Shown: one piece after another, positions 2,579 through 51,382 of the stretch | How the letters are laid out: the number at the start of each line of letters is the position of its first letter | How positions within the stretch are numbered: position 1 is the first letter of the stretch | From: a virus | Lineage: Duplodnaviria > Caudoviricetes | DNA length: 57,230 bases | IMG/VR virus record: IMGVR_UViG_3300025120_012119 | Span: 1-57,230 of that record | Reading direction: 5' to 3' (one strand) | Made by a program: the position numbers and the translations under genes | Notes under the pieces: model-generated | Told to the model about the DNA's origin: nothing | What the model saw: only the letters and a program-made list of their open reading frames with translations | The model's database searches: none

Positions 2579-5500
2579 ATGGCATTAGATAAAACTAAAA
2601 AATCAAATAGGTTACTTGCGAGTAGGAGGTATACGATGGAACAAAGTTCGGATGCTCAAGAAGCATTCACAAGTGTACTTGACATCAATGCATCTGAAGT
2701 TTATATTGACCAAGCAGCTATCCCAACTACAGGTTTACCATACTCAGGGAGTACTCAAAATGGAGAATATGTGTTATCTGGTAGTGCTAATTTATTAAGA
2801 TATTATTATCAAGAACAATTAACACCCTCAAATGTTGTTAATGGTTCAAAAACAGAAGTATTCTTTTTAATATCAGCATCAGGACATAACCCAGCAACTG
2901 CAGTAACACCTCAAATTATACAAGCAGGTCAACAAGGTAGTTTTATTTCTCCAAAATATTCGGATCCATCTTTAACAAATGCTGATACAGAAGATTTAAC
3001 ACCAGGTTATAATGTAACTATTAGAGTAAATGGTACTAAACAAAACCCATCAAATTATCAGTTTGATTATAAAACAGGTGTAATACAGTTTGTGGATGCA
3101 GATGTAGCACCTACTACAGGTGATACAGTAAAATGTTCAGTTTATCAATATGTTGGTAGAACATTAAGTGATAGTGCTGGAGGTAGTGGACAAGGTTTCC
3201 CATTTTCAGGATCAGCTCAGATTACAGGATCAGTTGGAGGAGTAGCTGGAGGGTTTGCAGTAACAGGTAGTAGTACTTTTGATATAAGTGGAACAGGAGA
3301 TGATTTTAAAATAGAATCAGCACCAATACAAGATTTTCCTTTTGTATTAACATATGCAACAGGATCTGGTAAAATAGGATATGTTGAAGTATCATCAGGT
3401 ACAAGTGGTGTAGCAGGTTCAAATGGTTCTGCTGGTGTATCAGGAACAAGTGGTTCATCAGGTTCATCAGGAGCGACTGGTACTAATGGATCTTCAGGTC
3501 TTGCAGGTGTAAGTGGTTTAAGTGGAACTAATGGTTCTTCAGGATCATCAGGTGACGATGGTACTACAGGTTCAAGTGGAGAAAGTGGAACTTCGGGTTC
3601 AAGTGGAACTTCAGGTTCAAGTGGGACAACAGGTTCAGCAGGTTCTTCAGGAGCAGATGGAACTTCAGGTTCATCAGGTTTAGCTGGTGTTTCAGGATTA
3701 AGTGGAACTAATGGTTCATCAGGTTCATCAGGTGATGATGGAACAACAGGATCATCAGGTGAAAGTAAAACTTCAGGTTCAGCAGGTACAAGTGGATCTT
3801 CAGGTGAATCAGGAACAGTAGGTTCAAGTGGTTTAAGTGCAACTTCAGGTTCACAAGGTTCAAGTGGAGTAGCAGGTGCTTCAGGTTTAGCAGGAACAGC
3901 AGGTTCATCAGGATCATCAGGTGCAGATGGAACTACGGGTTCTTCAGGTGAAAGTAAAACTTCAGGATCTTCAGGTACAAATGGATCTTCAGGTGGAAAT
4001 GGAACTAATGGTTCATCAGGTCTTGCAGGTGCAAGTGGTTTAAGTGGTACTAATGGTTCATCAGGTTCTTCAGGAGATGATGGTACAACGGGTTCAAGTG
4101 GAGAAAGTAAAACTTCAGGTTCAGCAGGATCAAGTGGTTCATCAGGTGGTAGTGGTACTGTAGGTTCAAGTGGTTTAAGCGCGACATCAGGTTCACAAGG
4201 TTCAAGTGGTGTGGCAGGAGCGTCAGGTTTAGCAGCAACAGCAGGTTCATCAGGTTCTTCAGGAGCTGATGGAACAACAGGCTCAGCAGGTTTATCAGGT
4301 CAAGCAAATACTTCAGGCTCAGCAGGTACAAGTGGTTCAAACGGTTCTTCAGGTAATGATGGTACTTCAGGTTCATCAGGTCTTGCAGGTGTAAGTGGTT
4401 TAAGTGGTACTAATGGCTCTTCTGGATCATCAGGAGACGATGGTACAACAGGTTCAAGTGGAGAAAGTGCAACTTCAGGATCTACAGGATCTTCAGGTTT
4501 AAGTGGTGGTTCAGGAACAGTAGGATCTTCAGGAGCAAGTGCAACTTCAGGATCTACGGGATCTAGTGGTGTAGCAGGAGCATCAGGTTTAGCAGCAACA
4601 GCAGGTTCATCAGGTTCTTCAGGAGCTGATGGAACAACAGGCTCAAGTGGAGAAAGTGGAGGAAGTGGAACTTCAGGCTCAGCAGGTACAAGTGGTTCAA
4701 ATGGTTCTTCAGGAGATAATGGAACTTCAGGTTCATCAGGTTTAGCTGGTGTCTCAGGATTAAGTGGAACTAATGGTTCATCAGGTTCTTCAGGAGATGA
4801 TGGTACTACAGGTTCAAGTGGAGAAAGTAAAACTTCTGGATCTTCAGGTACAAATGGTTCAAGTGGTGGAAGTGGTACAGTAGGATCTTCAGGTGCATCA
4901 GCAACAGCTGGTTCATCAGGTTCAAATGGTTCAAGTGGTAATGCAGGAGAAGCAGGAGCAAGTGCAACTTCAGGTTCTTCAGGAACTTCAGGTTCTGTAG
5001 GTTCATCAGGTGATTCAGGTGGTAGTGGAACAGCAGGCTCTTCGGGAGCAAGTGCAACTTCAGGTTCACAAGGTTCAAGTGGTGTATCAGCTGCTTCAGG
5101 ATTAAGTGGAACAGCAGGTTCATCAGGATCAAGTGGCGCAGATGGTACTACTGGTTCTTCAGGAGATAGTGCAACTTCAGGTTCAACTGGTTCTTCAGGT
5201 GCCAGTGGTGGTTCAGGAACAGTAGGATCTTCAGGAAGTAGTCAAACATCAGGATCTTCGGGTTCAAACGGTTCTTCAGGTAATACGGGTGCAGCAGGTC
5301 AAAGTGCATCTTCAAATACTTCAGGATCTAGTGGTACAAATGGTTCTTCAGGTGATTCAGGAGGTAGTGGAACATCAGGTTCTTCAGGTTTAAGTGGACA
5401 ATCTGGTACAAATGGTTCAGCTGGATCTAGTGGAGTATCAGGTGTAGCAGGGAATAGTGGAACAGCAGGTTCATCAGGTTCTTCAGGAGCTGATGGGACA

Positions 5501-8500
5501 ACAGGTTCATCAGGTGAAAGTGCAACTTCGGGTTCAACAGGATCAAGTGGTTTAAGTAAAGCATCAGGAACAGCAGGTTCAAGTGGTTTAAGTAAAGCAT
5601 CAGGAACAGCAGGGTCATCAGGTTCGAGTGGATCTTCAGGTAATACAGGTGCAGCAGGTCAAAGTGCTTCTTCAAATACTTCAGGATCTTCAGGAACAAA
5701 TGGTTCATCAGGTGACTCAGGTGGAAGCGGTACTTCAGGTTCTTCAGGACAAAGTGGACAATCAGGAACAAATGGTTCAGCTGGATCTTCAGGTGTAGCA
5801 GGAGCTTCAGGTAATAGTGGAACTGCAGGTTCATCAGGATCAAGTGGTGCAGATGGTACTACTGGTTCTTCAGGAGATAGTGCAACTTCAGGTTCAACTG
5901 GTTCTTCAGGTGCCAGTGGAGGCAGTGGTACAGTAGGTTCATCAGGTGAAAGTAAAACATCAGGATCTTCGGGTTCAAACGGATCTTCAGGTAATACGGG
6001 TGCAGCAGGTCAAAGTGCATCTTCAAACACTTCAGGATCTTCAGGAACAAATGGTTCATCTGGTGATTCAGGTGGAAGCGGTACTTCAGGATCTTCAGGT
6101 TTAAGTGGACAATCAGGTACAAATGGTTCAGCTGGATCTAGTGGAGTAGCAGGTGCTTCAGGATTAAGTGGAACAGCAGGTTCGTCAGGTTCTTCAGGAA
6201 GAGATGGAACTACAGGTTCTTCAGGAGCAAGTGCAACTTCAGGTTCAACTGGTTCTTCAGGTGCCAGTGGAGGTTCAGGAACAGTAGGATCTTCAGGTGA
6301 AAGTAAAACATCAGGATCTTCGGGTTCAAACGGATCTTCAGGTAACACAGGTAATGCGGGTCAAAGTGCTTCTTCAAACACTTCAGGATCTAGTGGTACA
6401 AATGGTTCATCAGGTGATTCGGGTGGAAGTGGTACTTCAGGTTCTTCAGGTTTAAGTGGTGGTTCAGGTACAAATGGTTCAGCTGGATCTAGTGGAGTAG
6501 ATGGTGCTTCAGGATTAAGTGGAACTGCGGGTTCATCAGGACAAAGTGGTGCAGATGGAACAACAGGATCAAGTGGGGAAAGTGCAACTTCAGGTTCAAC
6601 TGGTTCTTCAGGTGCTAGTGGAGGTTCAGGAACAGTAGGATCTTCAGGAAGTAGTCAAACATCAGGATCTTCAGGTTCAAACGGTTCTTCAGGTAACACA
6701 GGTAATGCTGGTCAAAGTGCATCTTCAAACACTTCAGGATCTTCAGGAACAAATGGTTCGTCAGGTGATTCAGGTGGAAGTGGTACTTCAGGTTCTTCAG
6801 GACAGAGTGGTGGTTCAGGTACAAACGGTTCAAATGGATCTTCAGGTGTAGCAGGTGCTTCAGGATTAAGTGGAACAGCTGGTTCATCAGGACAAAGTGG
6901 TGCAGATGGAACAACAGGATCAAGTGGGGAAAGTGCAACTTCGGGTTCAACGGGATCAAGTGGTTTAAGTAAAGCATCAGGAACAACAGGGTCATCAGGA
7001 AGTAGTCAAACATCAGGATCTTCAGGTTCAAATGGTTCCTCAGGTAATACAGGTAATGCAGGTCAAAGTGCAGGTTCTGCAACTAGTGGTTCATCAGGAA
7101 CAAATGGCTCATCTGGTGATTCAGGTGGAAGTGGTACTTCAGGATCTTCAGGTTTAAGTGGTGGTTCAGGTACAAATGGTTCAAACGGATCTTCAGGTGT
7201 AGCAGGAGCTTCAGGATTAAGTGGAACAGCAGGTTCATCAGGATCAAGTGGGGCAGATGGAACAACAGGTTCTTCAGGTAATGCTGGTGGATCAGGTCAA
7301 AGTGCAGGATCAGGTACTTCTGGATCTTCAGGTTCAAATGGTTCAAATGGTAATACTGGTGCAGCAGGTGCAAGTAAATCATCAGCTACAAGTGGTTCAT
7401 CAGGATCAAATGGTTCAACTGGTAATGCCGGTGCAGCAGGTCAAAGTGCATCTTCAAATACTTCAGGATCTAGTGGAACAAATGGTTCGTCAGGTGATTC
7501 AGGAGGTAGTGGTACTTCAGGTTCTTCAGGACAAAGTGGTGGTTCAGGAACAAATGGTTCAAACGGTTCAAGTGGAGTAGCAGGTGCTTCAGGATTAAGT
7601 GGAACAGCAGGTTCGGCAGGATCTTCAGGTGCTGATGGTACAACAGGTTCTTCAGGTAATTCTGGAGGATCAGGTCAAAGTGCAGGATCAGGAACTTCAG
7701 GTTCATCAGGATCAAATGGTTCAAACGGTAACACAGGTGGAGCAGGTGCAAGTAGAGCATCAGGTACTTCAGGTTCAACAGGATCTTCAGGTTCAACAGG
7801 TGCTACAGGTGGGGCAGGTGCAAGTAAATCATCAAATACTTCAGGATCTAGTGGAACAAATGGTTCAAATGGTAACGCTGGTGCAGCAGGTGCTTCAGCA
7901 GTAAGTGGTGAATCAGGAACTTCAGGTTCAAATGGTTCAAATGGAGCAGCAGGTGCTACAGGTGCTGGCGGTCAAAGTGGACAATCAGGTACTAATGGTT
8001 CAAATGGTTCAAATGGAGTAGCAGGTGCTTCAGGATTAAGTGGAACAGCAGGTTCAGCAGGATCTTCAGGAGGAGATGGAACTACAGGTTCAAGTGGTAA
8101 TTCTGGAGGATCAGGTCAAAGTGCAGGATCAGGTACTTCTGGATCTTCGGGTTCAAACGGTTCAAATGGTAATACAGGAGGATCAGGTGCAAGTAGGGCA
8201 TCAGGAACTTCAGGTTCAACAGGAACTTCAGGTTCAACAGGTGCTACAGGTGGAGCAGGAGCAAGTAGATCATCAAACACTTCAGGATCTAGTGGTACAA
8301 ATGGTTCAAATGGTGTTGCGGGTAATGCAGGTGCTTCAGCCGTAAGTGGTGAATCAGGAACTTCAGGTTCAAATGGTTCAAATGGAGCAGCAGGTGCTAC
8401 AGGTGCTAGTGGTCAAAGTGGACAATCAGGTACTAATGGTTCAAATGGTTCAAATGGTAATGCAGGTGCTTCAGGATTAAGTGGAACAGCAGGTTCAGCA

Positions 8501-10207: not shown

Positions 10208-10210
10208 AAT

Positions 10211-10774
10211 ATGTCTTATATATCTCAAAGTTTAACATTTAGTGAAGATAAAATAATATTTGCTGACGTAGAAAATAATGAATTTGAAGTTATGATGGAT
10301 TGGGAAAATCCTCTAATGTCAGCTTCAGCAGCTTATATATGTGAAGGAGGAGGTGATATACTTGAAATTGGATTTGGAATGGGTATATCAGCTAATTATA
10401 TTCAATCACATACAATTAATTCACATACTATTATAGAAAACCACCCAGATATGATTCCAAAAGCTCAAGCATGGGCTGCTGATAAATCTAATGTAACTAT
10501 AGTAGAAGGTGATTGGTATGGTGTAAAAGATACTTTAAGTACTTATGATGGTTTATTTATGGATACTTATGGAGATAAGAATATGAAATATTTTTCATCT
10601 TCATTATCATCATTAATAAAAGTAGGAGGAAAAGCTACTTGGTGGAATTCAATGACAGGATCAGATAATTATTATAATATACCTGAGGTAACATATGATA
10701 TCCACAATATAACTCCTCCATCAAACACATATTTTAACCACACACAATATTATTTGCCCAAAAAACAGTTTTAA
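10211..10774 (+). CDS. Class I SAM-dependent methyltransferase, GAMT/RMT2-like
   Basis: VMMDWENPLM, motif I ILEIGFGMGISA, HTIIENHP, YDGLFMDTY. Confidence 0.8.
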   Translation: MSYISQSLTFSEDKIIFADVENNEFEVMMDWENPLMSASAAYICEGGGDILEIGFGMGISANYIQSHTINSHTIIENHPDMIPKAQAWAADKSNVTIVEGDWYGVKDTLSTYDGLFMDTYGDKNMKYFSSSLSSLIKVGGKATWWNSMTGSDNYYNIPEVTYDIHNITPPSNTYFNHTQYYLPKKQF

Positions 10775-11467
10775 ATGGCAACAACTACTATATACGCAAC
10801 AACAGGACTTACTGGAAGAGGATTTATTCAAGCTCAAAACGAAGAGTGGGATGAAGCAGTAGCAGCGGATTCAGGAACTGTTTCTTCTAACTCCTCAAAC
10901 TCATTAGGTGTTAGAGCAGGGTTTGTAGAAGGTAGAGGAGGTGGTCAATTTTTTGTTTCTCGAGCTTATGCTTATTTTGATACAAGTGCTGTTACCACTA
11001 CAGTTACAGCGGCTACAGTTAAAGTATATTCAAGCGGAACTAATGGAGGTAATATTAGAATGTATAAAAGTACGGCTTTTGGTAATAATGGCTCAACATT
11101 GTCATCAGATGATTTTCCAGCCGTAACTTCAACTTTATATTCATCAGCTGATTATGGTGAGTTAAATTGGGGGACTAATCAATTGCGATCTTTTTCTTGT
11201 AATGCTACAGCTGTTTCAAATATAAATGATGTTAATTATCTTAATGTTGTTTTTAGAAATGATAAAGATGTTGATGAAGATGAACCTGGAGAAGATTTTT
11301 ATCTAGGAGTTAATTTTTTAACTTCTGGAACTAATAGAATTCAAATTCAATTAACACATGCGGATGCAGGTTATGGCAATCAAGTTAATACTGTTACAGC
11401 AGCAAAAATAAGCAACGTTGTAGGGGTAGCAACAGCTAATATCGCAAACGTAATAGGAGTTTCATAA
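10775..11467 (+). CDS. Putative virion structural protein (beta-rich, possibly carbohydrate-binding)
   Basis: 230-aa ORF abutting the previous gene, S/T/G/A-rich, with a RAYAYFDTS..VTAATVKVY pattern like DNRLRE-type beta-sandwich domains and a short C-terminal repeat (ISNVVGV/IANVIGV). Confidence 0.5.
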   Translation: MATTTIYATTGLTGRGFIQAQNEEWDEAVAADSGTVSSNSSNSLGVRAGFVEGRGGGQFFVSRAYAYFDTSAVTTTVTAATVKVYSSGTNGGNIRMYKSTAFGNNGSTLSSDDFPAVTSTLYSSADYGELNWGTNQLRSFSCNATAVSNINDVNYLNVVFRNDKDVDEDEPGEDFYLGVNFLTSGTNRIQIQLTHADAGYGNQVNTVTAAKISNVVGVATANIANVIGVS

Positions 11468-11471
11468 TATT

Positions 11472-11511
11472 ATATTTATAATTTGGATGATAGCAAAACT
11501 ATCATTATATT
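11472..11511 (+). promoter_or_regulatory. Tandem putative promoters: ATATTTATA motif and TTGGAT-N17-TATATT
   Basis: ATATTTATA at 11472-11480, TTGGAT at 11483-11488, 17-nt spacer, TATATT at 11506-11511. Inverted repeat ATGATAG/CTATCAT at 11487-11505. Lies upstream of the glycosyltransferase operon. Confidence 0.6.
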
Positions 11512-11541
11512 ATTACATAGTTTTATAAAATTAATAGTTAC

Positions 11542-14226
11542 ATGCAAAAACTCTTATTTATTGCACCCCACCTATCTACAGGGGGACTTCCCCAATATTT
11601 AACAAAAAAGATAGAACTTTTAAAAGGTGAATTTGAAATTTATTTAATTGAATGGACAGACTGTACTGGAGGTAAACTAGTAGTAACTAAAAATAAAATT
11701 CAAAAATTACTTCCAAAGAAAAATTTTTATACACTTTATGAAGATAAAAGTAAATTATTTACTATAATTCGAAAAATTAATCCTGATATTATTCATTTAG
11801 AAGAAATTCCTGAATATTTTATGGATGATGATATAGCTCAAAAATTATATAATGTAAATAGAAATTATTTTTTAGTTGAAACATCACATGATTCTTCAAT
11901 GAATACTGATAATAAATTATATTTTCCAGATAAATTTATGTTTGTATCTAATTGGCAAATAGAGCAATATAAGAACATAGATATACCTAAAATACTAGTT
12001 GAATATCCTATTGAATATATTCCTAGACCTGATAGAGAAATTGCTTTAAAACGCTTAAATTTAGATCCTACTAAAAAACATATTTTACATATTGGTTTAT
12101 TCACATCACGTAAAAATCAAAAAGAATTTTTTGAATATGCTAGAGCTTTACCTGAGTATGAGTTTCATAGTGTAGGAAATCAAGCAGAAAATTTTAAATG
12201 GTATTGGGAGCCATTAATGAAAGATAAACCAAATAATGTTACATGGTGGAATGAAAGAACAGATGTAGATAATTTTTACCAATCAATGGATTTATTTTTA
12301 TTTACATCTAGAGGAAGTAAAAATGATAAAGAAACAATGCCCTTAGTTATTAGAGAAGCTTTATCATATCAAATTCCACAACTATTATATAATTTAGAGG
12401 TTTATCAAAATTATTTTGATAGTTATGATTCTATTAATTATTTAGATTTTAATAGTTTTGATAAAAATATTTTAAGGATTAAAGAACACTTTAATGATAT
12501 TAATATTCTTAAAGAAGAAGAAGAAGCATATGTAATTTGTACTTACCCTAAAACTCAAGCAGTAGTAGATACTACAATAGAGTGTATTAAATCATTAAGA
12601 AAAAATAGCAATAGAAAAATTATAATATCAGCACATTGTCCTGTACCTAAAGAATTACAAGATATGGTTGATTATGTATTTTATGAAAAAAATAATTTAT
12701 TAACTAAACATACATTTTACTCTGGATATACAGCAAGTAATAATTTATATGATACTTATGTTAATTTAAGAGGTGAAGACAATGATAGATACCATGGTCC
12801 TGCTTGTTATACTTCATTTTACAACCCAGCTACATTTGCTAAAGGGTTAGATATTAAAAAATTATATTATATTAATTTTGATTATATTCTTAAAGATAGT
12901 AGTTACATAGATTATATATCTAAAAAATTAAATAAACATGATACTTTCTTTGGTGAATTTAAAGCACAAGAAGGTAAATGTTATTATACATACTTTTTTG
13001 CGGCAAGACCAGAAGCAATTTTAAATAATTGTCATTTTATAGAAACAGAAGATCAATATAATAATCTTATGAGTAAGCATGGTGCTGAATCTAATGGTAT
13101 AGAAAATTTATATTATCATATATTTAAAAATAATACTAATAATTATATTGAACCTAAAGAAAAATTTGAATCTGATGCTGAAAAATATTTTGAGTTTGAA
13201 GATTATTCGATGGTTGAATATTATACTATACTACCTACAGATGTAGAGAATCATTTTTGTCCTTGGATAACAATATCAAATGCTAAAGAAAGTAAAAATA
13301 TTCATTATACTGTAGAAAAAAATAAAGAACTTATTATTGATAGAACATTAGAAGTTAGGGGTAAATATCAATTTTGGGATTTAGTAAAATATGATTTAAA
13401 TGACAACATTACAGTCATATTTGATGTAAAAGATACTAATACAGGAGAAAGTGTAAAATATCATAAATTTAATTTAAATAAAGATTATTTTTTAAATATA
13501 ATGCCTAATAATGGTATGTTTAATTGGAAAGGTGATAGAATTAATTATGAATCTTATCCAAAAATTAAAATCGTACATTTATTAACACACCCAGAAGAAG
13601 AAAGAGAGATACGTTCAATTGAATCTATCAGCAAACTAGGAGAATACGATAATATAGAATATACATCTGTAATTAATACTCCTTATACTGATTTACCACC
13701 AACACAAAATTGTAATAGACCAAATGATGTTCAGATGGAACCTGGTTATTATAAATTAGCTCCTGGACATTATGGGTGTTTTAAAGCACATACAGATGCT
13801 ATATTATCATGTCCTAAAGATAATAATACTGTTTATTTATTTTTTGAATGTGATGCTTTATTATTAAAAGACCATAATGAATTTGTTAATAAATTAAATG
13901 AAGCAATAAAAATTTCAAAAGAAAAAGATTATACATTCTTTAGTTTTGCCCACAATTATGAAATATTTCATGAATATGAAACTCATATTGATGCTGGCAT
14001 GTTTACAGATGCTCATGCTTATATAATTAGAGGTAATAAAATTGATAATGTACACGATAGGATTAATAATTCAAAATGGGATGCTTTTGATTTATGGGTA
14101 ACTAACAACTTTAGAGATGAACCCAAAGGATTTTTTAAAGAACCTTTAGTATTTCAAGCAAAGGGGTACAGTTTAATAGATAAAAAAATTAGTAAAACTA
14201 ATATTAAAGGAGATTTAAAAATATAA
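11542..14226 (+). CDS. Multidomain glycosyltransferase (N-terminal GT4/GT-B, central GT-A-like, C-terminal GT25-like)
   Basis: HLSTGGLP, LHIGLFTSRKNQ, DLFLFTS..ETMPLVIREAL (GT4); YYINFDY; GHYGCFKAH..LFFECDA (GT25-like). Confidence 0.8.
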   Translation: MQKLLFIAPHLSTGGLPQYLTKKIELLKGEFEIYLIEWTDCTGGKLVVTKNKIQKLLPKKNFYTLYEDKSKLFTIIRKINPDIIHLEEIPEYFMDDDIAQKLYNVNRNYFLVETSHDSSMNTDNKLYFPDKFMFVSNWQIEQYKNIDIPKILVEYPIEYIPRPDREIALKRLNLDPTKKHILHIGLFTSRKNQKEFFEYARALPEYEFHSVGNQAENFKWYWEPLMKDKPNNVTWWNERTDVDNFYQSMDLFLFTSRGSKNDKETMPLVIREALSYQIPQLLYNLEVYQNYFDSYDSINYLDFNSFDKNILRIKEHFNDINILKEEEEAYVICTYPKTQAVVDTTIECIKSLRKNSNRKIIISAHCPVPKELQDMVDYVFYEKNNLLTKHTFYSGYTASNNLYDTYVNLRGEDNDRYHGPACYTSFYNPATFAKGLDIKKLYYINFDYILKDSSYIDYISKKLNKHDTFFGEFKAQEGKCYYTYFFAARPEAILNNCHFIETEDQYNNLMSKHGAESNGIENLYYHIFKNNTNNYIEPKEKFESDAEKYFEFEDYSMVEYYTILPTDVENHFCPWITISNAKESKNIHYTVEKNKELIIDRTLEVRGKYQFWDLVKYDLNDNITVIFDVKDTNTGESVKYHKFNLNKDYFLNIMPNNGMFNWKGDRINYESYPKIKIVHLLTHPEEEREIRSIESISKLGEYDNIEYTSVINTPYTDLPPTQNCNRPNDVQMEPGYYKLAPGHYGCFKAHTDAILSCPKDNNTVYLFFECDALLLKDHNEFVNKLNEAIKISKEKDYTFFSFAHNYEIFHEYETHIDAGMFTDAHAYIIRGNKIDNVHDRINNSKWDAFDLWVTNNFRDEPKGFFKEPLVFQAKGYSLIDKKISKTNIKGDLKI

Positions 14227-15107
14227 TGAATAAATTTATTGACATAAAGGTTACAGGTGCACAAGCACAATTGCGCTCATCAACTACAATAGAAGTAGCA
14301 GTAAAAGATAATATCAAATTCTTTTTTCCAGAAGATAATTTACCTTTAAAAGTTGAAATTTTTAGAACTCATGGTGATAATAAATTATATGAAGTTGATT
14401 TAATCCCAGGTAGAAAATGTTGGCATAATTGGTTTGATGGTTGTACTTTAAAAATATCTACATCTAAAGGAGTTGAAGTTGGTAAAGTTCAATGGAATAG
14501 TTTAGAACATGGAACTCAATCAGAAATAGCATTTGATTTATGGTGTGCTTCAAATTTAAATACTAAAGGTGTTGCTATAGGAACAAATGATGGGTCAACA
14601 GGAGAATGGGTTCATTTATATCACCGTCAACTTTTTTCTAAAGTATTATTAGTTGAAGCATCTACTGATCCATTTTTAAAATTAAAACAAAATTATAATG
14701 ATCAAAATGTTACTTTATTAAATAAATTAATTACTCCAAAAGGAGGTAAAGTAAAATTTTATGAAGCTTTAGATGGTGAAGGTCATACTAATTCTGTAGA
14801 TAAAGAACATTTATTAAATTTTTATTCTAATATACAAGAAGTTGAAAAAGAATCTATAGGTATTAATGAACTTTTAGTTGAAAATAAATTTAATAATTTA
14901 GATTGGTTACATATTGATGTAGAAGGTATAGATGATGAGTTAATAATGGCTTTAGATTTTAACAAAATTTCAAAGCCTAAAGTTATTATTTATGAAAGAG
15001 TTAATGATATTAATGAAATAAAAGTAGAAGACTTTTTACATTCAAATGGGTATAAAATTTGGGTAGATGATAAAAAAGGATATAATAATATAGCATTTTT
15101 AAAATGA
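14226..15107 (+). CDS. FkbM-family SAM methyltransferase with an N-terminal extension
   Basis: IGTNDG, LLVEAS, DWLHIDVEGID, PKVIIYE. Confidence 0.75.
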   Translation: MNKFIDIKVTGAQAQLRSSTTIEVAVKDNIKFFFPEDNLPLKVEIFRTHGDNKLYEVDLIPGRKCWHNWFDGCTLKISTSKGVEVGKVQWNSLEHGTQSEIAFDLWCASNLNTKGVAIGTNDGSTGEWVHLYHRQLFSKVLLVEASTDPFLKLKQNYNDQNVTLLNKLITPKGGKVKFYEALDGEGHTNSVDKEHLLNFYSNIQEVEKESIGINELLVENKFNNLDWLHIDVEGIDDELIMALDFNKISKPKVIIYERVNDINEIKVEDFLHSNGYKIWVDDKKGYNNIAFLK

Positions 15108-16057
15108 AAATATGTCATGTAGACCCAGCTTGTGGGTTATCAATCCCCCCTAAAAATTGGGGAGCGATAGAAAAAATTATTTGGGAATTTGAAGTAAATC
15201 AAACTATATTAGGTCATGATTCAACTCATAAAATGGCATCTGATATTAAATTAGATGATTTTGATATTGTACATTGTCATGTAGCTAATTTAGCTATTGG
15301 TTTACAAGAAAGAGGTATACCATATATTTACCAACTACATGATCATCATGTTTTACATTATGGTAAAGATTCTCATGTATATAGAGAAAATTTAAAAGCA
15401 ATAGAAGGATCTTTAATATCATTAATGCCAGCTAATTGGTTAGTTAAATATTTTGATAACCATCCTAAATGTGTTTATTTTTCACATGGTGTTAATGTAA
15501 ATGAGTTTTATCCTAAATTTAATAAAAAACCATCAAACCCAAAATTATTAATGTTAGCTAATAATGGGTTAGGGGGTGATAGAACATTTGATAGAAAAGG
15601 ATTTGAATATGGATTAGGTTTAGCTATGATAAATAATTTAGAAATTACAATAGCAGGACCTTCTAATAATAAAAATTTCTTTAATGGTCATATTTGGATG
15701 TTAAATTATCCTAATTTAAATTTAGTATTTGATACACCAAACACAGAATTATTAGATTTATTTCATTCTCATGATATTTTTGTCCACCCCACAATGTTGG
15801 AGGCAGGCCATCCTAATTTAACAATGTTAGAAGCTATGTCGGCAGGTTTACCTGTTATAGCTGATTGGGAAATGGAAGTTGATTTAAATGGATGTTGGAG
15901 AGCACCTCGTGATATTTTTGAAATGGATAGAGGATTAAAAGATATTCTAAAAAACTGGAATTCTTATAGAAGACAATGTTTAGAAACTTCAGAGAAATTA
16001 TCATGGTTAAACAGAACAAAAGAATTATTTAAAATATATGATGAATTTAAAAAATAA
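15104..16057 (+). CDS. Glycosyltransferase family 4
   Basis: IPPKNWGAIE, SHGVN, RKG, DIFVHPTMLEAGHPNLTMLEAMSAGLPVI. Confidence 0.85.
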   Translation: MKICHVDPACGLSIPPKNWGAIEKIIWEFEVNQTILGHDSTHKMASDIKLDDFDIVHCHVANLAIGLQERGIPYIYQLHDHHVLHYGKDSHVYRENLKAIEGSLISLMPANWLVKYFDNHPKCVYFSHGVNVNEFYPKFNKKPSNPKLLMLANNGLGGDRTFDRKGFEYGLGLAMINNLEITIAGPSNNKNFFNGHIWMLNYPNLNLVFDTPNTELLDLFHSHDIFVHPTMLEAGHPNLTMLEAMSAGLPVIADWEMEVDLNGCWRAPRDIFEMDRGLKDILKNWNSYRRQCLETSEKLSWLNRTKELFKIYDEFKK

Positions 16058-16748
16058 AATATCAGTTTTAATTCCAACTTGTGATAGTTATTCTAATTGT
16101 TGGGAAGGTTTAGGATTAAGTTGGGAAATTCTTAGTGGACTAGACTTAAACATATATGTTATATCAGATAATAATAAATTTAATTATGAATATAAAAATA
16201 TTATTCCTTTAAGTATTAACAAACCAGATTATACAAAATATGATTTTTCAAATAAGTTAATTTATGCTTTAGATAAAATAAAAACAAAATATGTTTTATT
16301 AATGTGTGATGATATGTGGCCTGAAAGATCCATTAAAAATATTATGCCTGAATTTATTAAATTTATGGATAATGAACAAGCAGATTGTCTTCGTATACAT
16401 GAAAAATTACATTGGTGGGGGTATGATTTTGAAACATCAGATAAATTTATTGGAGGTAATAGAGTACTTAAAATGCAACAAGATTCTGTGTGGTTATTAA
16501 CTCATAATGCTGCTATTTGGAATGTAGAATATTTAAAATCTATTATGTTTCCAAATGAAGATCCTTGGAACAATGAAATATTAGGTACTGAAAGGGCAAA
16601 ATTAAAACCTCACAATCAATACCATTATAATATGAGGTGGTATTTACAAATACATAATTTTGATAGAGGAAATATTTTACCTTATGGTCAAGCTTTTATA
16701 GATGATTTAAGATATAAAAAACAATTTAATAAAGAATTTAATATATGA
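16038..16748 (+). CDS. Putative GT-A (GT2-like) glycosyltransferase
   Basis: ISVLIPTCD N-terminus, KTKYVLLMCDD (DxD-like), AAIWNVEYL..EDPWNNE. The start may be the second ATG at 16041. Confidence 0.6.
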   Translation: MMNLKNKISVLIPTCDSYSNCWEGLGLSWEILSGLDLNIYVISDNNKFNYEYKNIIPLSINKPDYTKYDFSNKLIYALDKIKTKYVLLMCDDMWPERSIKNIMPEFIKFMDNEQADCLRIHEKLHWWGYDFETSDKFIGGNRVLKMQQDSVWLLTHNAAIWNVEYLKSIMFPNEDPWNNEILGTERAKLKPHNQYHYNMRWYLQIHNFDRGNILPYGQAFIDDLRYKKQFNKEFNI

Positions 16749-17947
16749 AAGAAATTCTAATAAAAGAATATAATAATTTAATTAAAAAACCAGTTAAATT
16801 TAAATTACCTAAAAATACCTTTTCATCAAATTATATTATGGGGGGTAAATTTGAAGTTTTAGGTAAAAATAAAAAAAATTATAATGTAAAGTTTATAGAT
16901 CAAAAAAATAATACAGTTGTATACGAATCAGATATAACTAATAATATGTGGTGTAAAACTGGAAAAGAATATTTTGTTGATTATAAAATTCAAGTAACAG
17001 ATAAAGAAAATAATAAATTAGTTTTTGAAGATTTTTATAATGCTGAAGATAAAAAAGTGTATATTCATTTTGCTTCTAAAGCAATAGGTGATACTTTAGC
17101 ATGGTTTCCATATGCTGAAGAATTTAGAAAAAAACATAAATGTAAATTGGTAGTCTCTACATTTCATAATAAATGGTTTGAAAGCACATACCCAGAAATA
17201 GAATTTGTAGAACCAGCTACAGAAATATTTGATTTATATGCTATGTATGAGGTTGGTTGGCATTATAATAAAGATAAAGAAATTAACTATAATAGAAATC
17301 CTTTAGATTTTAGAAAAATCCCATTACAAGGAGCTTCATACGATATATTAGGATTAGATAATAAAGAAATTAAACCTAAATTATCATTTAAAAATACAGG
17401 ATCTACAATTGATAGTGATTATGTTTGTATAGCACCTCATGGTTCATCTCATGCTAAGTATTGGAATCGTAAAGGTGGTTGGCAAGATGTAATAGATCAT
17501 TTAAATAATAAAGGTTATAAAGTAGTAATGATTACTCAAGAACCTTTAGGTGATAAATGGCATGATTCTAAATTAGGTGGTACTTTAAAAGGTGTAATTG
17601 ATAAAACAGGAGATTATCCATTAAGTGAAAGAGCTAATGATATAATGAATGCTAAAGCTTTTATTGGTATAGGAAGTGGGTTAAGTTGGTTAGCATGGGG
17701 ATTAGGAACACCTGTTGTTATGATATCAGGGTTTAGTGAAGCTTATAGTGAGTTTGAAGATTGTGAAAGGGTAGAAGCACCAAAAGATAAATGTGGGGGA
17801 TGTTTTAATAAAGTTCAATTAGACGCGGGTGATTGGGAGTGGTGCCCCGAACATAAAGACACAGATAGACATTATGAGTGTACTACATCAATTGAATCTC
17901 AAATAGTAATAGATGCTACAAACCGTCAATTAGAAAAAAATTATTGA
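16745..17947 (+). CDS. Aah/TibC-type (autotransporter) protein O-heptosyltransferase homolog, GT9-like
   Basis: AIGDTLAWFPYAEEFRKKHKC, YVCIA..AKYWN..GW, FIGIGSGLSWLAWGLGTPVVMISGFS, and the four-Cys motif CGGCFN..WEWCPEH..YECT that matches the TibC iron-finger. Confidence 0.85.
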   Translation: MKEILIKEYNNLIKKPVKFKLPKNTFSSNYIMGGKFEVLGKNKKNYNVKFIDQKNNTVVYESDITNNMWCKTGKEYFVDYKIQVTDKENNKLVFEDFYNAEDKKVYIHFASKAIGDTLAWFPYAEEFRKKHKCKLVVSTFHNKWFESTYPEIEFVEPATEIFDLYAMYEVGWHYNKDKEINYNRNPLDFRKIPLQGASYDILGLDNKEIKPKLSFKNTGSTIDSDYVCIAPHGSSHAKYWNRKGGWQDVIDHLNNKGYKVVMITQEPLGDKWHDSKLGGTLKGVIDKTGDYPLSERANDIMNAKAFIGIGSGLSWLAWGLGTPVVMISGFSEAYSEFEDCERVEAPKDKCGGCFNKVQLDAGDWEWCPEHKDTDRHYECTTSIESQIVIDATNRQLEKNY

Positions 17948-17955
17948 TATTTATA
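17947..17955 (+). promoter_or_regulatory. Putative late promoter ATATTTATA
   Basis: Recurrent motif 18 nt upstream of the ATG at 17974. Confidence 0.55.
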
Positions 17956-17973
17956 ATAAAATAAAAGAATAGT

Positions 17974-19494: not shown

Positions 19495-19533
19495 TAATAA
19501 TAGTTTTTAACAATAAGTTTTAATACGTATAAT

Positions 19534-19779
19534 ATGACAAAATTAACAGAAGAAGAAATTAAAAAGGTTAGTGATTTAAAAATTAAATTTAACCAAATAG
19601 TAGAAACAACAGGAGCTATAGAGGTGCAAATAATGCAACTTCAAGCTCAAAAAGAAGAATTAAAAGTGAGTTTAGTTGATTTAAGAAAAGAAGAACTCGT
19701 AGTAGCTAAAGAATTAGAAGAGAAATATGGCAAAGGAACAATTTCTTTAGATACTGGTGAATTTTCCCCTAATAATTAA
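19534..19779 (+). CDS. Small coiled-coil hypothetical protein
   Basis: 81 aa, heptad pattern, ends LEEKYGKGTISLDTGEF; preceded by the motif variant ATACGTATA. Confidence 0.65.
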   Translation: MTKLTEEEIKKVSDLKIKFNQIVETTGAIEVQIMQLQAQKEELKVSLVDLRKEELVVAKELEEKYGKGTISLDTGEFSPNN

Positions 19780-19798
19780 ATTTTTGACAAAAGCTCAT

Positions 19799-19807
19799 AT
19801 ATTTATT
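19799..19807 (+). promoter_or_regulatory. Putative late promoter variant ATATTTATT
   Basis: 24 nt upstream of the sheath ATG. Confidence 0.45.
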
Positions 19808-19831
19808 ATCAAAATATAACAATTAAACAAC

Positions 19832-22135: not shown

Positions 22136-22150
22136 GAATTAGAGAATATA

Positions 22151-22159
22151 ATATTTATA
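22151..22159 (+). promoter_or_regulatory. Putative late promoter ATATTTATA
   Basis: In the sheath-tube intergenic region. Confidence 0.55.
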
Positions 22160-22190
22160 ACTGAATAAAAAAATTAAATAAAAACACAAA

Positions 22191-51007: not shown

Positions 51008-51186
51008 AAGCAACATATACTAATAAAGACACTTTTGTAATTCCTATTAAAATAGGTGATATTATATTAACAGGTAGATTTAGAAATAAACCAGTAAAAG
51101 TAAAAGAAGTTGGAATTGATGAATTAGGCCAACCCACAGTAAACGGAAACCCAATATTAAAATTTAGACTACCAAAAGTAATGTAA
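51004..51186 (+). CDS. Small hypothetical protein
   Basis: 60 aa, overlaps the previous stop, IKIGDIILTGRFRNK..IDELGQPTVNG. Confidence 0.6.
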   Translation: MKATYTNKDTFVIPIKIGDIILTGRFRNKPVKVKEVGIDELGQPTVNGNPILKFRLPKVM

Positions 51187-51187
51187 T

Positions 51188-51382
51188 ATGGCAAAATTAA
51201 CAAGAACAGTAAATTACGCAAACTTCAGATGGGAAGAATATGTGTTAACAGAAGAAGAATTAGCAAAGTGGAAAACAGGGGATGAAGATATTCAACAAGA
51301 AATCATAGATGATGCAGATTGGGACCTGGTAAGAGATAAACCAATTGATGATTATGGTGACGTAGAATTTGTAGAAGAATAA
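51188..51382 (+). CDS. Small acidic hypothetical protein
   Basis: 64 aa, 1-nt spacing to its neighbours. Confidence 0.6.
   Translation: MAKLTRTVNYANFRWEEYVLTEEELAKWKTGDEDIQQEIIDDADWDLVRDKPIDDYGDVEFVEE

What the first reader, a model, noticed from the sequence alone, without database searches (positions are those of the whole stretch)
2579..17947. Candidate phage glycoprotein-fibre system: giant Ser/Thr Gly-X-Y fibre next to a protein O-glycosylation/methylation cassette
Seen: a 2542-aa protein of about 700 Gly-X-Y tripeptides packed with Ser/Thr is followed by a methyltransferase, a small structural gene and a tightly coupled operon (three-domain GT, FkbM methyltransferase, GT4, GT-A-like, Aah/TibC-like heptosyltransferase), all set among fibre and tail genes. 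Known: Aah/TibC enzymes hyper-glycosylate Ser residues of repetitive passenger proteins. Inference: the phage primes Ser/Thr of its own repeat fibre, then extends and methylates the glycan, giving a mucin-like glycan-coated virion appendage for shielding, adhesion or hydration.
Basis: partly seen in the sequence, partly recalled or inferred. Interest (0 to 1): 0.85.

Follow-up and report, generated by a model that had tools for sequence, protein, structure and literature searches.

The report
Phage collagen-like fibre with its own glycosylation genes
A large aquatic phage encodes a giant proline-free, serine-rich collagen-like fibre next to a set of sugar-adding enzymes whose key member belongs to a little-known branch of a bacterial adhesin-glycosylating family that almost always sits beside such Gly-X-Ser repeat proteins, in phages and in bacteria.

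Summary
Window 2579-10207 encodes a 2542-aa protein with about 697 in-register Gly-X-Y triplets (Ser 33%, Thr 11%, Pro 0). A translationally coupled cassette follows: an 894-aa three-domain glycosyltransferase, an FkbM methyltransferase, a GT4, a weakly GT-A-like ORF and a TibC/Aah-family enzyme.

TibC relatives from phages and bacteria form a clade separate from four autotransporter-linked enzymes used as outgroup. A Ser/Thr-rich Gly-X-Y ORF lies within 7 kb in 64 of 79 informative clusters.

In bacterial chromosomes the pairing shrinks to two genes, a TibC-like gene beside a small secreted Gly-Thr/Ser-Ser repeat protein.

TibC-linked repeats carry Ser at the Y position. TibC-less collagen-like fibres of related phages carry Thr there. 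Published work shows TibC modifies Ser, not Thr.

So the phage most likely O-glycosylates its own fibre. Nothing biochemical is shown. The sugar, the role of the other enzymes, and whether the fibre sits on the head or the tail are open. The methyltransferase-like gene and the small ORF just after the fibre gene also occur with non-collagen homologues of it in relatives that lack the cassette.

No paper making this link was found. This is a new variant of a known kind.

The parts
2579..3403 (+). N-terminal non-repeat domain of the fibre protein (aa 1-275)
   Evidence: translation. No Pfam match above noise. 82% identical over this part in one relative that reaches it, L030.
3404..9673 (+). Collagen-like repeat region (aa 276-2365), about 697 Gly-X-Y triplets. 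Ser-rich and Pro-free, with higher-order repeats of about 117-147 aa.
   Evidence: Pfam Collagen 576 bits. Register and composition statistics, X: S 240, T 114; Y: S 305, A 79, N 73, T 70, out of 567 strict steps.
9674..10207 (+). C-terminal globular domain of the fibre protein
   Evidence: 42% identical (E 1e-9) to the C-terminus of Flavobacterium phage immuto gp047, annotated 'tail fiber protein'. Conserved in 14 further loci. A low-confidence model (pLDDT 60) resembles phage capsid decoration proteins, Z 9.0-7.5, and C-terminal parts of long viral fibre-like proteins in BFVD.
10211..10774 (+). SAM-methyltransferase-like ORF (187 aa), linked to the fibre gene and not to the GT cassette
   Evidence: Methyltransf_25 24.4 bits, below the cut-off of 27. 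Its homologues follow fibre C-domain homologues in relatives without the GT cassette, for example L172, L190, L201 and L203-L211.
10775..11467 (+). 230-aa ORF of unknown function that travels with the fibre gene
   Evidence: No family match. Homologues lie directly after the fibre gene in L183, L189, L190 and L172, which lack the cassette.
11542..14226 (+). 894-aa three-domain glycosyltransferase: N-terminal GT-B (GT4), then two GT-A-like domains around a beta-rich insert
   Evidence: Glycos_transf_1 at residues 165-296. AlphaFold model pLDDT 72. Foldseek top hits are human collagen galactosyltransferase COLGALT1 (E 6e-9) and LH3, glycogenin for single GT-A domains, and BshA/WaaG for the GT-B part. 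Atlas lead to Glyco_transf_25, carried by 17% of members. Present in nearly every close locus that reaches far enough, and in megaphage LR756501.
14226..15107 (+). FkbM-family methyltransferase (293 aa), accessory
   Evidence: PF05050 34.3 bits, cut-off 22.7. TIGR01444 scores 36 bits, just under its cut-off of 37.7. Found in only 4 of the 80 closest loci: L017, L018, L061, L070.
15104..16057 (+). GT4 glycosyltransferase (317 aa), core cassette member
   Evidence: Glycos_transf_1 33.5 bits and phrog_2170 glycosyltransferase. Directly upstream of the TibC-like gene in most close loci; the FkbM-bearing loci have the 236-aa ORF or an inverted order in between. Fused to the TibC-like domain in LR756501, Mel-JY01, L111, L108 and L138.
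16038..16748 (+). 236-aa ORF, possibly GT-A/GT2-like, accessory
   Evidence: TIGR04440 23 bits, cut-off 70. Atlas nearest named cluster is Glycos_transf_2, carried by 25% of members, score 0.95. The sequence shows 'VLIPT' and 'CDD' motifs; reading them as GT-A hallmarks is from recall. Co-occurs with FkbM in the same 4 loci.
16745..17947 (+). TibC/Aah-family (GT9) protein O-glycosyltransferase, 400 aa
   Evidence: TIGR04414 321 bits, cut-off 200. PDB 4rap TibC E 9e-64, with catalytic Asp, Lys, Arg, Trp and four Cys aligned (residue roles from PMC4358343). D116, K238, W315 and the four Cys are invariant in 16 phage homologues.
17974..19494 (+). 506-aa ORF of unknown function between the cassette and the sheath gene (context)
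   Evidence: phrog_13518, unknown function, E 2e-10. Variable among relatives.
19832..22135 (+). Tail sheath (context, anchors the module)
   Evidence: Phage_sheath_1/1C and phrog_23 E 6e-64. 52% identical to the sheath of Flavobacterium phage immuto.

Best explanation
The window is about one third of a roughly 160-kb myovirus related to Flavobacterium phage immuto. Its structural module encodes a trimer-type collagen-like fibre. The fibre has an N-terminal domain, about 697 Pro-free Gly-X-Y triplets with Ser dominant at Y, and a C-terminal domain shared with shorter non-collagen fibre proteins of relatives.

I infer the following mechanism. In the infected cell, the TibC-family enzyme (16745-17947) transfers a sugar onto Ser of the G-X-S triplets of the fibre chain. 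ADP-heptose is the donor by analogy with TibC. The GT4 and the three-domain 894-aa enzyme then add further sugars. In this phage the accessory FkbM methyltransferase and the 236-aa GT-A-like protein decorate the glycan. The product would be a densely O-glycosylated fibre on the virion.

Shown: the genes, their families, the conserved catalytic residues and the gene-neighbourhood statistics.

Inferred: the enzyme-substrate pairing, the sugar, the order of steps and the purpose. A plausible purpose is to stabilise and hydrate a triple helix that lacks proline, and to give it a glycan surface.
For: 1. Family and active site. TIGR04414 scores 321 bits against a cut-off of 200, and TibC structure 4rap matches at E 9e-64. 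Catalytic base Asp110 aligns with D116. K230, R286 and W305 are identical and T226 is Ser. All four iron-finger Cys are kept (roles from PMC4358343 passages).

2. Close relatives. One search found 165 IMG/VR contigs and kept 80. Of the 36 loci (window plus those 80) with at least 6 kb upstream of the gene, 34 have a same-strand Ser/Thr-rich Gly-X-Y ORF. Of the 37 with under 5 kb upstream, 1 does.

3. More distant phage homologues. One search found 349 contigs and kept 80. 42 of those 80 loci have such an ORF, on either side and either strand. Cultured Microcystis phage Mel-JY01 and megaphage LR756501 show the same pairing.

4. Bacterial and archaeal genome loci. 36 of 48 have one, usually adjacent. 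These are small proteins that look secreted: hydrophobic N-termini, some with a Cys in a lipobox-like position (my reading; no predictor was run). They lie amid housekeeping genes. Density is 0.221 per kb within 2 kb against 0.027 per kb at 2-10 kb, p 2e-9.

5. Tree of 105 clusters at 80% identity. Four autotransporter-linked plasmid enzymes are the outgroup, 98*. All but one of the rest (100 of 101 rows; L417 falls outside) form one clade, 100*. Within it 64 of 79 informative clusters have the repeat ORF within 7 kb.

6. Controls. 0 of 80 ribonucleotide-reductase-anchored loci of the same phage group (1148 kb) and 0 of 4 canonical loci have such an ORF.

7. Reverse test. 8 of 120 IMG/VR stretches picked only for a Gly-[Ser/Thr-type codon]x2 repeat pattern (1.04 Mb) hold a TibC homologue.

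8. Acceptor logic. In TibC-linked repeats the Y position has median Ser 0.50-0.78 and Thr 0.02-0.09, with Pro 0 (65 clusters). In 9 TibC-less collagen-like ORFs of related phages, Y has Ser 0.00 and Thr 0.60. The Ser share differs at p 3e-5. TibC modifies Ser and not Thr, and it also modifies short peptides.

9. Natural fusions of the TibC-like domain with GT4 or with a SAM methyltransferase.

10. Donor hint. Two complete TibC-positive relatives encode a 135-aa protein whose best match is heptose-1-phosphate adenylyltransferase (113 bits, cut-off 181.5) and a PfkB-like kinase. The adenylyltransferase is absent from 4 of 5 TibC-less relatives, and the fifth has only a 30%-identical match.
Against: - No biochemical or proteomic datum exists for any member. 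All support is by association.
- 15 of 79 informative clusters lack a Ser/Thr-rich Gly-X-Y ORF within 7 kb. L072 has a Pro/Gln-type collagen instead. L111, L138 and L144 have Gly-X-Y ORFs of other composition or further away. Seven clusters (L122, L129, L162, L141, L137, L166, L126) sit beside a giant non-collagen fibre of about 2000-2480 aa. L084, L388, L405 and L108 have nothing obvious.
- Collagen-like fibres occur without the enzyme in related phages: 11 of 80 sheath-anchored loci.
- Most Gly-Ser-repeat loci sampled (112 of 120) show no TibC homologue in the stretch fetched.
- The thumb tip Phe265/Val266, which TibC needs to form its dodecamer, aligns with Asp-Lys next to an insertion. The quaternary structure probably differs.
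- The residue that sets heptose stereoselectivity (Pro300 in TibC, Ser294 in AAH) is Gly here.
- No GmhA-type isomerase was found in 5 phage genomes. The adenylyltransferase-like hit is below its family cut-off and lies outside the window.
- Many loci are related, so counts are not independent events.
Confidence: 0.65

Rival explanations
1. The cassette glycosylates other virion proteins (capsid, sheath, tube or another fibre), as in mycobacteriophages. The collagen-like fibre is only a neighbour in the structural module.
For: The cassette lies in the structural module just upstream of the sheath gene. A subclade of phage homologues sits beside a giant non-collagen fibre. Virion glycosylation of capsid and tail-tube proteins is known in Mycobacterium phages (Freeman et al. 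2023, seen only as cited in PMC12619734).
Against: In bacterial chromosomes, which have no virion genes, the enzyme gene still sits beside Gly-Thr/Ser-Ser repeat proteins. The switch between Ser and Thr at the Y position tracks presence of the enzyme.
Confidence: 0.12
2. The enzymes remodel host envelope glycans (LPS core, capsule or glycolipids) during infection, for example to block superinfection or to aid release.
For: GT9 is mainly an LPS heptosyltransferase family, and weaker matches to RfaQ/RfaC models are seen. The GT4 domain of the 894-aa protein gives weak matches to glycolipid-synthesising enzymes. Related phages carry a WavE LPS-synthesis-type domain next to their fibre gene.
Against: The best match by far is the protein-O-heptosyltransferase equivalog, 321 bits against at most 42 bits for LPS enzymes. 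TibC-specific iron-finger cysteines are present. The neighbourhood link to repeat proteins holds across unrelated genomes.
Confidence: 0.08
3. The TibC-like protein has lost or changed catalysis and serves as a chaperone or assembly scaffold for the long repeat chain. The other GTs act elsewhere.
For: TibC grips its substrate inside a ring (paper abstract and passages). The thumb region differs here. The Arg286 equivalent is not invariant among phage homologues.
Against: The catalytic Asp, Lys and Trp are invariant in 16 phage sequences. Fusions to GT4 and to methyltransferase domains point to glycan chemistry.
Confidence: 0.05
4. The cassette modifies phage DNA (base glycosylation).
For: Phage glycosyltransferases often act on DNA (general statement in PMC12619734).
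Against: None of the families here is a known DNA glycosyltransferase family (my knowledge, not a call). The cassette is in the structural module and not the replication module. Bacterial homologues pair with secreted proteins.
Confidence: 0.02

Closest known systems
TibC/Aah bacterial autotransporter heptosyltransferases (BAHT) with TibA/AIDA-I
   Same: Same sequence family, over the curated equivalog cut-off, with about 35-38% identity to plasmid-borne members. The catalytic Asp, most sugar-binding residues and the iron-finger Cys are shared. The enzyme gene lies next to a highly repetitive Ser-rich substrate gene. Ser is the acceptor (PMC4358343).
   Different: The neighbour is a collagen-like Gly-X-Ser protein and not a beta-helical autotransporter. 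It belongs to a separate clade from the four canonical plasmid enzymes. The thumb region is altered and the stereoselectivity residue is Gly. It is encoded by a phage, and in phages it is accompanied by further GTs.
BclA/BclA3 collagen-like spore-surface glycoproteins of Bacillus and Clostridioides
   Same: Both have an N-terminal domain, a Gly-X-Y region rich in hydroxy amino acids and a C-terminal domain. Both form surface filaments and are O-glycosylated by dedicated enzymes. BclA glycosylation is described in review PMC8968730 (passages). SgtA acting on BclA3 is from PMC7157674 (abstract only).
   Different: BclA repeats are mostly Gly-Pro-Thr, per my recall and the Gram-positive X/Y statistics. 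The enzymes belong to other families, and the structure is a spore and not a virion. Related TibC-less phages do carry Gly-Pro-Thr fibres, with a 2OG-Fe(II) oxygenase beside them.
Mycobacteriophage virion glycosylation (Freeman et al. 2023)
   Same: Phage-encoded glycosyltransferases modify the phage's own structural proteins.
   Different: The targets are C-termini of capsid and tail-tube subunits, there is no collagen-like substrate, and the GT families differ. I saw this only as cited in PMC12619734. The paper itself was not read.
Collagen glycosylation in animals and Mimivirus (COLGALT1/GLT25D1, LH3, Mimivirus R699/L230)
   Same: A collagen-type substrate with dedicated GTs. The two GT-A-like domains of the 894-aa protein give COLGALT1 and LH3 as best fold matches, and Mimivirus R699 is at rank 33.
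   Different: Those enzymes act on hydroxylysine. The fibre here has 0.7% Lys, and no hydroxylase was found among the window ORFs scanned. Sequence identity is about 10%, so this is a resemblance in fold and not membership.

Membership tests
TibC/Aah O-heptosyltransferase family (BAHT, NCBIfam TIGR04414) | Full-length match over the curated equivalog cut-off | tested here: met
   321.1 bits against a cut-off of 200, covering residues 43-393. PDB TibC E 9e-64.
TibC/Aah O-heptosyltransferase family (BAHT, NCBIfam TIGR04414) | Catalytic base Asp110 and sugar-binding Thr226, Lys230, Arg286, Trp305 | tested here: met
   D, K, R and W are identical and Thr226 is Ser, by my count on the alignment. 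The numbering was checked against the D110A chain 4rb4. Residue roles are from PMC4358343. The Arg is not invariant among other phage homologues.
TibC/Aah O-heptosyltransferase family (BAHT, NCBIfam TIGR04414) | Iron-finger Cys339, 342, 358, 370 | tested here: met
   All four align with Cys and are invariant in 16 phage sequences.
TibC/Aah O-heptosyltransferase family (BAHT, NCBIfam TIGR04414) | Beta-hairpin thumb with hydrophobic tip (Phe265, Val266) that builds the dodecamer | tested here: inconclusive
   HMMER aligns the tip to Asp-Lys beside a 5-residue insertion. MAFFT places the insertion differently. Oligomeric state was not modelled.
TibC/Aah O-heptosyltransferase family (BAHT, NCBIfam TIGR04414) | Adjacent autotransporter or AIDA-repeat substrate | tested here: not met
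   The window ORFs scanned gave no autotransporter domain. The neighbour is a collagen-like protein. Canonical plasmid loci do have autotransporter, Hint-domain or AIDA-repeat neighbours.
TibC/Aah O-heptosyltransferase family (BAHT, NCBIfam TIGR04414) | ADP-heptose as donor | not testable with these tools
   Indirect only. The stereoselectivity position is Gly. An adenylyltransferase-like gene is present in two complete relatives. No GmhA was found.
Collagen triple-helix repeat proteins (Pfam PF01391) | Gly at every third residue over long stretches | tested here: met
   576 bits. The register is kept over 2090 residues, with only 8 spacings of 4 or 5 that break it; spacings of 1 and 2 come from extra Gly at the X or Y position.
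Collagen triple-helix repeat proteins (Pfam PF01391) | Forms a trimeric triple helix | not testable with these tools
   No proline at all, so stability is unknown.
Glycosylated collagen-like surface filaments (BclA type) | N-domain, collagen-like region and C-domain architecture, with dedicated GT genes nearby | tested here: met
   This is a likeness in architecture, not homology of the end domains.
Glycosylated collagen-like surface filaments (BclA type) | O-glycans on the collagen-like region | not testable with these tools
   Needs mass spectrometry of virions.
GT25/COLGALT1-type collagen glycosyltransferases | Sequence membership in Glyco_transf_25 and a hydroxylysine acceptor | tested here: not met
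   No Pfam match for residues 331-894. Only fold similarity (E 6e-9, about 10% identity) and an Atlas lead. The fibre has 0.7% Lys.

The most novel reading that the evidence does not exclude
A large, unrecognised sister clade of the TibC/Aah enzymes is specialised for Gly-X-Ser 'collagen-like' repeats. It defines a glyco-collagen system found in both phages and free-living bacteria. Sugars on Y-position Ser take over the helix-stabilising role that hydroxyproline or Thr plays elsewhere. That would let phages build proline-free glycosylated filaments of up to about 0.6 micrometre. The length estimate is 2090 residues at about 0.29 nm rise per residue, a value I recall. The filaments may be anchored on the capsid and not the tail.
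Probability: 0.35. Interest if true: 0.85.

Novelty: new variant of a known kind. Interest (0 to 1): 0.74.

Why it matters
Protein glycosylation of phage particles is documented for very few phages. This cassette occurs on hundreds of environmental phage contigs: 165 and 349 hits in two IMG/VR scans. These include jumbo phages and a cultured Microcystis phage.

If the pairing is real, three things follow:
- The TibC/Aah family gains a second substrate class.
- A Ser-at-Y against Thr-at-Y rule becomes available to predict which collagen-like proteins are glycosylated.
- Small secreted repeat proteins in methanotrophs and other bacteria are identified as likely glycoproteins.

Glycan-coated fibres would bear on host recognition, particle stickiness in aquatic organic matter and virion stability. 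The two-gene bacterial modules and the E. coli-compatible donor make the idea directly testable.

Tried and rejected
- Megablast of 10000-22200 against GenBank phages gave no match.
- PHROGs gave nothing for the cassette except the GT4.
- A PDB sequence search with the 894-aa protein gave only noise, E at least 0.17.
- Pfam at E up to 1 gave nothing for residues 331-894 of that protein, the 230-aa ORF or the 236-aa ORF. The fibre end domains gave only noise (E at least 0.14, below cut-offs).
- The single-protein scan of genome contigs found one locus only. The alignment-based scan was needed.
- The GT9 protein beside the Gly-[Leu/Ile]-Ser fibre of L228 shows no BLAST similarity to the window enzyme, so I did not count it as TibC-like.
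- The C-terminal domain model has pLDDT 60. Its fold matches are leads only. The tool states that a best Z of 7-8 is typical for unmatched models.
- A GmhA (PF13580) search in 5 phage genomes was empty.
- A paper search for 'Mel-JY01' found none.
- Complex prediction was not used, because enzyme-substrate pairs are outside what it tests well.
- Literature searches for a published link between this enzyme family and collagen-like proteins or phages found no relevant paper. Subscription journals are not covered.
- Figures and supplements of PMC4358343 could not be seen. I mapped residues through the PDB alignment instead of its family alignment.

Full report
**What the window is.** The window is an IMG/VR viral record of 57,230 bases, estimated 35% complete, with about 30% G+C and all large ORFs on the + strand. 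Downstream of the finding lie a tail sheath, tube, baseplate hub and a tape-measure-like protein. After them come replication genes: a UvsX-like recombinase, a DnaB-like helicase and ribonucleotide reductase. The nearest cultured relative is Flavobacterium phage immuto, 160 kb, with 52% sheath identity and the same order sheath-tube-hub-tape measure. Two close relatives of the cassette sit on contigs binned into Flavobacteriales and Winogradskyella MAGs. This hints at a flavobacterial host, but binning is weak evidence.

**The observation.** It is confirmed. ORF 2579-10207 gives 2542 aa and matches Pfam Collagen at 576 bits. Between residues 276 and 2365, 522 of 676 Gly-Gly spacings are 3 and 52 are 6 or 9, so the triplet register runs almost unbroken for 2090 residues, about 697 triplets. 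Composition is Ser 32.7%, Gly 32.3%, Thr 10.6%, Ala 9.6%, Asn 5.8% and Pro 0. The genes from 11542 to 17947 overlap or abut.

Family assignments:
- 894-aa protein: GT1/GT4 domain at residues 165-296.
- FkbM methyltransferase.
- GT4.
- 236-aa ORF: only weak glycosyltransferase leads.
- 400-aa protein: over the curated cut-off of the Aah/TibC equivalog model, 321 against 200 bits.

The methyltransferase at 10211 is below Pfam cut-offs. The 230-aa ORF matches nothing.

**The TibC-like enzyme.** It aligns to TibC structure 4rap at E 9e-64. I read passages of the TibC structure paper (PMC4358343) and mapped its named residues onto that alignment. I checked the numbering against the D110A chain 4rb4.
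- Catalytic base Asp110 corresponds to Asp116.
- Lys230, Arg286 and Trp305 are identical, and Thr226 is Ser.
- The four iron-finger cysteines are all kept.
- The thumb-tip residues Phe265/Val266, whose mutation leaves TibC dimeric and inactive on TibA, align with Asp-Lys next to an insertion. MAFFT places that insertion differently, so I treat the ring-forming contact as not demonstrably conserved.
- The stereoselectivity position (Pro300 in TibC, Ser294 in AAH) is Gly.

The paper also reports that TibC modifies Ser and not Thr, that it modifies synthetic peptides, and that it uses ADP-D,D-heptose.

**The other enzymes.** An AlphaFold model of the 894-aa protein, built on 18 homologues, has pLDDT 72. 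It shows an N-terminal GT-B domain, a GT-A-like domain, a beta-rich insert and a second GT-A-like domain. Foldseek ranks human collagen galactosyltransferase COLGALT1 first (E 6e-9), followed by LH3. Glycogenin matches single GT-A domains, BshA/WaaG match the GT-B part, and Mimivirus R699 is at rank 33. An Atlas lead to Glyco_transf_25 agrees. This is a resemblance in fold at about 10% identity, not membership. The fibre has hardly any Lys.

**The co-occurrence test in close relatives.** One search found 165 IMG/VR contigs encoding 57-85% identical enzymes, of which 80 were kept.
- The conserved order is collagen-like ORF, then methyltransferase-like ORF and 230-aa ORF (variable), then 894-aa GT, then FkbM and 236-aa ORF (only in L017, L018, L061, L070), then GT4, TibC-like, (506-aa ORF), 81-aa ORF, sheath and tube.
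- Of the 36 loci (window plus the 80) with at least 6 kb upstream of the enzyme gene, 34 have a Ser/Thr-rich Gly-X-Y ORF.
- Of the two exceptions, L072 has a Pro/Gln-type collagen. By analogy with L072, L073 is cut before the point where the fibre gene would lie.
- Of the 37 loci with under 5 kb upstream, 1 has the ORF, so absence there reflects truncation.

These loci share synteny and count as roughly one evolutionary event.

**More distant phage homologues.** The four GenBank phage records with a homologue give the following.
- Microcystis phage Mel-JY01: a collagen-like ORF that spans the record ends and is missed by the deposited annotation, then a 'structural protein', then a 1226-aa GT4...TibC fusion.
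- Megaphage LR756501 and its twin record LR756503 (same length and coordinates; only LR756501 was examined): a homologue of the 894-aa GT, a GT4::TibC fusion and a divergent 699-aa Gly-[Ser/Thr]-Ser protein.
- Megaphage LR756504: nothing within 15 kb.

A scan with the Mel-JY01 domain found 349 IMG/VR contigs. Of the 80 kept, 42 have a Ser/Thr-rich Gly-X-Y ORF, on either side and either strand, up to 2846 aa long.

**Bacterial and archaeal genomes.** An alignment-based scan of species-representative genomes gave 48 loci, of which 36 have such an ORF. Two of the 48 are phage contigs binned into MAGs. In Methylobacter, Methylomicrobium, Polaromonas, Arenicellales and other loci, the partner is a small ORF directly adjacent to the enzyme gene (median 271 aa for the nearest such ORF across the set, which also includes a few phage-type contigs). 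These ORFs have hydrophobic N-termini, some with a Cys in a lipobox-like position, and tracts such as GTSGTSGTAGTSG. That they are secreted is my reading; no signal-peptide predictor was run. The flanking genes are housekeeping ones: QueA, Mfd, glycolate oxidase subunits and two-component systems. These are therefore chromosomal two-gene modules, like aah-aidA. Repeat ORFs are eight times denser within 2 kb of the enzyme gene than at 2-10 kb, 0.221 against 0.027 per kb, p 2e-9.

**Phylogeny.** A tree was built from 105 clusters at 80% identity, taken from 212 sequences of at least 300 aa out of 216. The method was IQ-TREE quick with SH-aLRT support only.
- Four plasmid-borne canonical enzymes lie next to an autotransporter, Hint-domain proteins, a large hypothetical protein and, near the fourth, an AIDA-repeat protein. 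They were set as the outgroup and group together on one side of a 98* branch.
- All other rows except L417 (100 of 101) form one 100* clade on a branch of 0.85.
- Within it, 64 clusters have the repeat ORF within 7 kb, 15 do not despite at least 7 kb on both sides, and 22 are too short to tell. The four outgroup loci are also short.

The 15 negatives are described: one Pro/Gln collagen, three Gly-X-Y ORFs of other composition or distance, seven clusters beside a giant non-collagen fibre of about 2000-2480 aa, and four with nothing.

**Controls.**
- 0 of 80 loci anchored on ribonucleotide reductase in the same phage group (1148 kb) carry a Gly-X-Y ORF.
- 0 of 4 canonical loci do.
- In 80 loci anchored on the immuto-type sheath, 3 have a Ser/Thr-rich ORF and 11 have any Gly-X-Y ORF of at least 20 runs.
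- In reverse, 8 of 120 IMG/VR stretches chosen only by a Gly-(WSN)2 x8 DNA pattern (1.04 Mb) hold a TibC homologue. That is far above the few hundred hits among 2.9 million contigs, although those hit counts are lower bounds.

**Ser against Thr at the Y position.** This is the most telling result.
- In TibC-linked collagen-like ORFs (65 clusters), the Y position has median Ser 0.50 (close relatives), 0.78 (distant phages) and 0.70 (bacteria). Thr is 0.02-0.09 and Pro is 0.
- In nine distinct collagen-like ORFs of related phages without the enzyme, Y has Thr at median 0.60 and Ser at 0.00. The Ser share of X+Y differs at p 3e-5, though the data are not independent.
- The one TibC-less ORF with Ser at Y (L228, 95%) sits near a different GT9-family gene and a GT2+GT4 fusion.
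- Gly-Pro-Thr fibres (L183, L189) are followed by a 2OG-Fe(II) oxygenase, an FkbM-domain protein and a WavE-type protein.

Each fibre chemistry thus comes with its own modification genes. The TibC type goes with Ser, matching the published Ser-not-Thr specificity.

**Which genes belong.** The methyltransferase-like ORF (10211) and the 230-aa ORF follow homologues of the fibre's C-terminal domain in relatives that have neither repeats nor the cassette. They belong with the fibre gene. The core of the cassette is the 894-aa GT, the GT4 and the TibC-like enzyme. FkbM and the 236-aa ORF are accessory. Natural fusions of the TibC-like domain with GT4, or in L144 with a SAM methyltransferase, tie these activities together.

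**The donor.** No GmhA-type isomerase was found in five phage genomes. Two complete TibC-positive relatives each encode a 135-137-aa protein. For the G001 copy the best NCBIfam match is heptose-1-phosphate adenylyltransferase, 113 bits, below the cut-off of 181.5 and ahead of the next family at 66 bits. Both also encode a PfkB-like kinase of about 250 aa with partial matches to the heptose kinase domain. The adenylyltransferase-like gene is absent from 4 of 5 TibC-less relatives, and the fifth has only a 30%-identical match. The TibC gene is absent from all 5. The Flavobacteriales MAG that holds a relative's contig has a full-scoring adenylyltransferase. This fits ADP-heptose but does not show it, and those genes lie outside the window.

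**Head or tail.** The last 100 or so residues are 42% identical to immuto gp047, annotated 'tail fiber protein'. The domain is conserved across many loci. A low-confidence model (pLDDT 60) matches phage capsid decoration or cement proteins at Z 9.0-7.5, and the phi29 head-fibre base at Z 5.1. In BFVD it matches the ends of long fibre-like proteins and some 130-170-aa proteins. A head-fibre reading is therefore possible, and I leave the location open.

**Novelty.** Full-text searches were run combining TibC, BAHT or heptosyltransferase with phage or collagen-like, and phage with collagen-like and glycosylation. They returned no paper making this link. The library lacks most subscription journals. 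The elements are known separately:
- BAHT enzymes (PMC4358343).
- Glycosylated collagen-like BclA proteins (PMC8968730, passages; PMC7157674, abstract).
- Virion glycosylation in mycobacteriophages (seen only as a citation).
- Collagen glycosylation in Mimivirus (PMC9546862, abstract).

The combination found here, a sister clade of TibC tied to Gly-X-Ser repeats in phages and bacteria, appears undescribed. I rate it a new variant of a known kind, with 0.65 confidence in the enzyme-substrate pairing.

Noticed in passing
L085:12739-15000 and L001:2-3049 (GenBank PP395634.1, Microcystis phage Mel-JY01): A collagen-like fibre ORF runs off the end of the linear record and continues in frame at its start. 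It is 754 aa plus about 1016 aa, with 196 Gly-X-Y runs. The deposited annotation instead shows small minus-strand 'hypothetical' genes there.
   Followed up: partly
L183:1-8819 and L189:1-6961: TibC-less relatives carry a Gly-Pro-Thr / Gly-Ser-Gln fibre (328 and 177 runs). It is followed by the 230-aa ORF homologue, a 2OG-Fe(II) oxygenase of prolyl-hydroxylase type, a 587-aa FkbM-domain protein and a TPR+WavE protein. This is an alternative modification cassette.
   Followed up: partly
L228:1528-9679: A Gly-[Leu/Ile]-Ser fibre (Ser 95% at Y) lies next to a GT2+GT4 fusion (884 aa) and a GT9-family protein (437 aa) that has no BLAST similarity to the window enzyme.
   Followed up: partly
L377:8992-11179, L378:8989-11131, L401, L408, L409 and other bacterial loci: Chromosomal two-gene modules occur in Methylobacter, Polaromonas, Arenicellales and others. 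Each pairs a TibC-like gene with a small Gly-Thr/Ser-Ser repeat protein that looks secreted or lipid-anchored. Some of these proteins end in poly-Asp.
   Followed up: partly
window 9674-10207: The fibre's C-terminal domain model resembles phage capsid decoration or cement proteins (Z up to 9.0) and the phi29 head-fibre base. The fibre may be a head fibre. The model is low-confidence (pLDDT 60).
   Followed up: partly
G001:C1:43406-43810 and 58304-59050; G002:C1:68072-68464 and 50519-51256 (complete relatives, outside the window): These relatives carry a heptose-1-phosphate adenylyltransferase-like gene (135 aa) and a PfkB-like kinase gene. The adenylyltransferase-like gene is present in both TibC-positive complete relatives and absent from 4 of 5 TibC-less relatives.
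   Followed up: partly
L141:44-7408 and the L122, L129, L137, L162, L166, L126 loci: In one subclade of phage TibC homologues the neighbour is a giant non-collagen fibre protein of about 2000-2480 aa (Ser+Thr about 0.2). This is possibly a third substrate type.
   Followed up: no
L099:5421-13958: This is the longest repeat ORF seen: 2846 aa with 825 Gly-X-Y runs, mostly Gly-Thr-Asn/Ser, convergent with a TibC homologue.
   Followed up: no
L021, L026, L062, L044 (663-694 aa) and L038, L072 (different N-terminus): Homologues of the 894-aa glycosyltransferase occur in shorter forms that lack a domain, and in forms with an extra or rearranged N-terminal part.
   Followed up: no
window 2579-10207 against 11542-17947: The fibre gene has 44-46% G+C because of its Gly/Ser codons. 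The GT cassette has 24-27%, below the window's roughly 30%.
   Followed up: no
L375 and L376 (MAG contigs NZWA01000020.1, NZ_JABDKL010000107.1): These phage contigs carry the fibre-cassette-sheath module and are deposited inside Flavobacteriales and Winogradskyella MAGs. This may be a host hint or a binning artefact.
   Followed up: no
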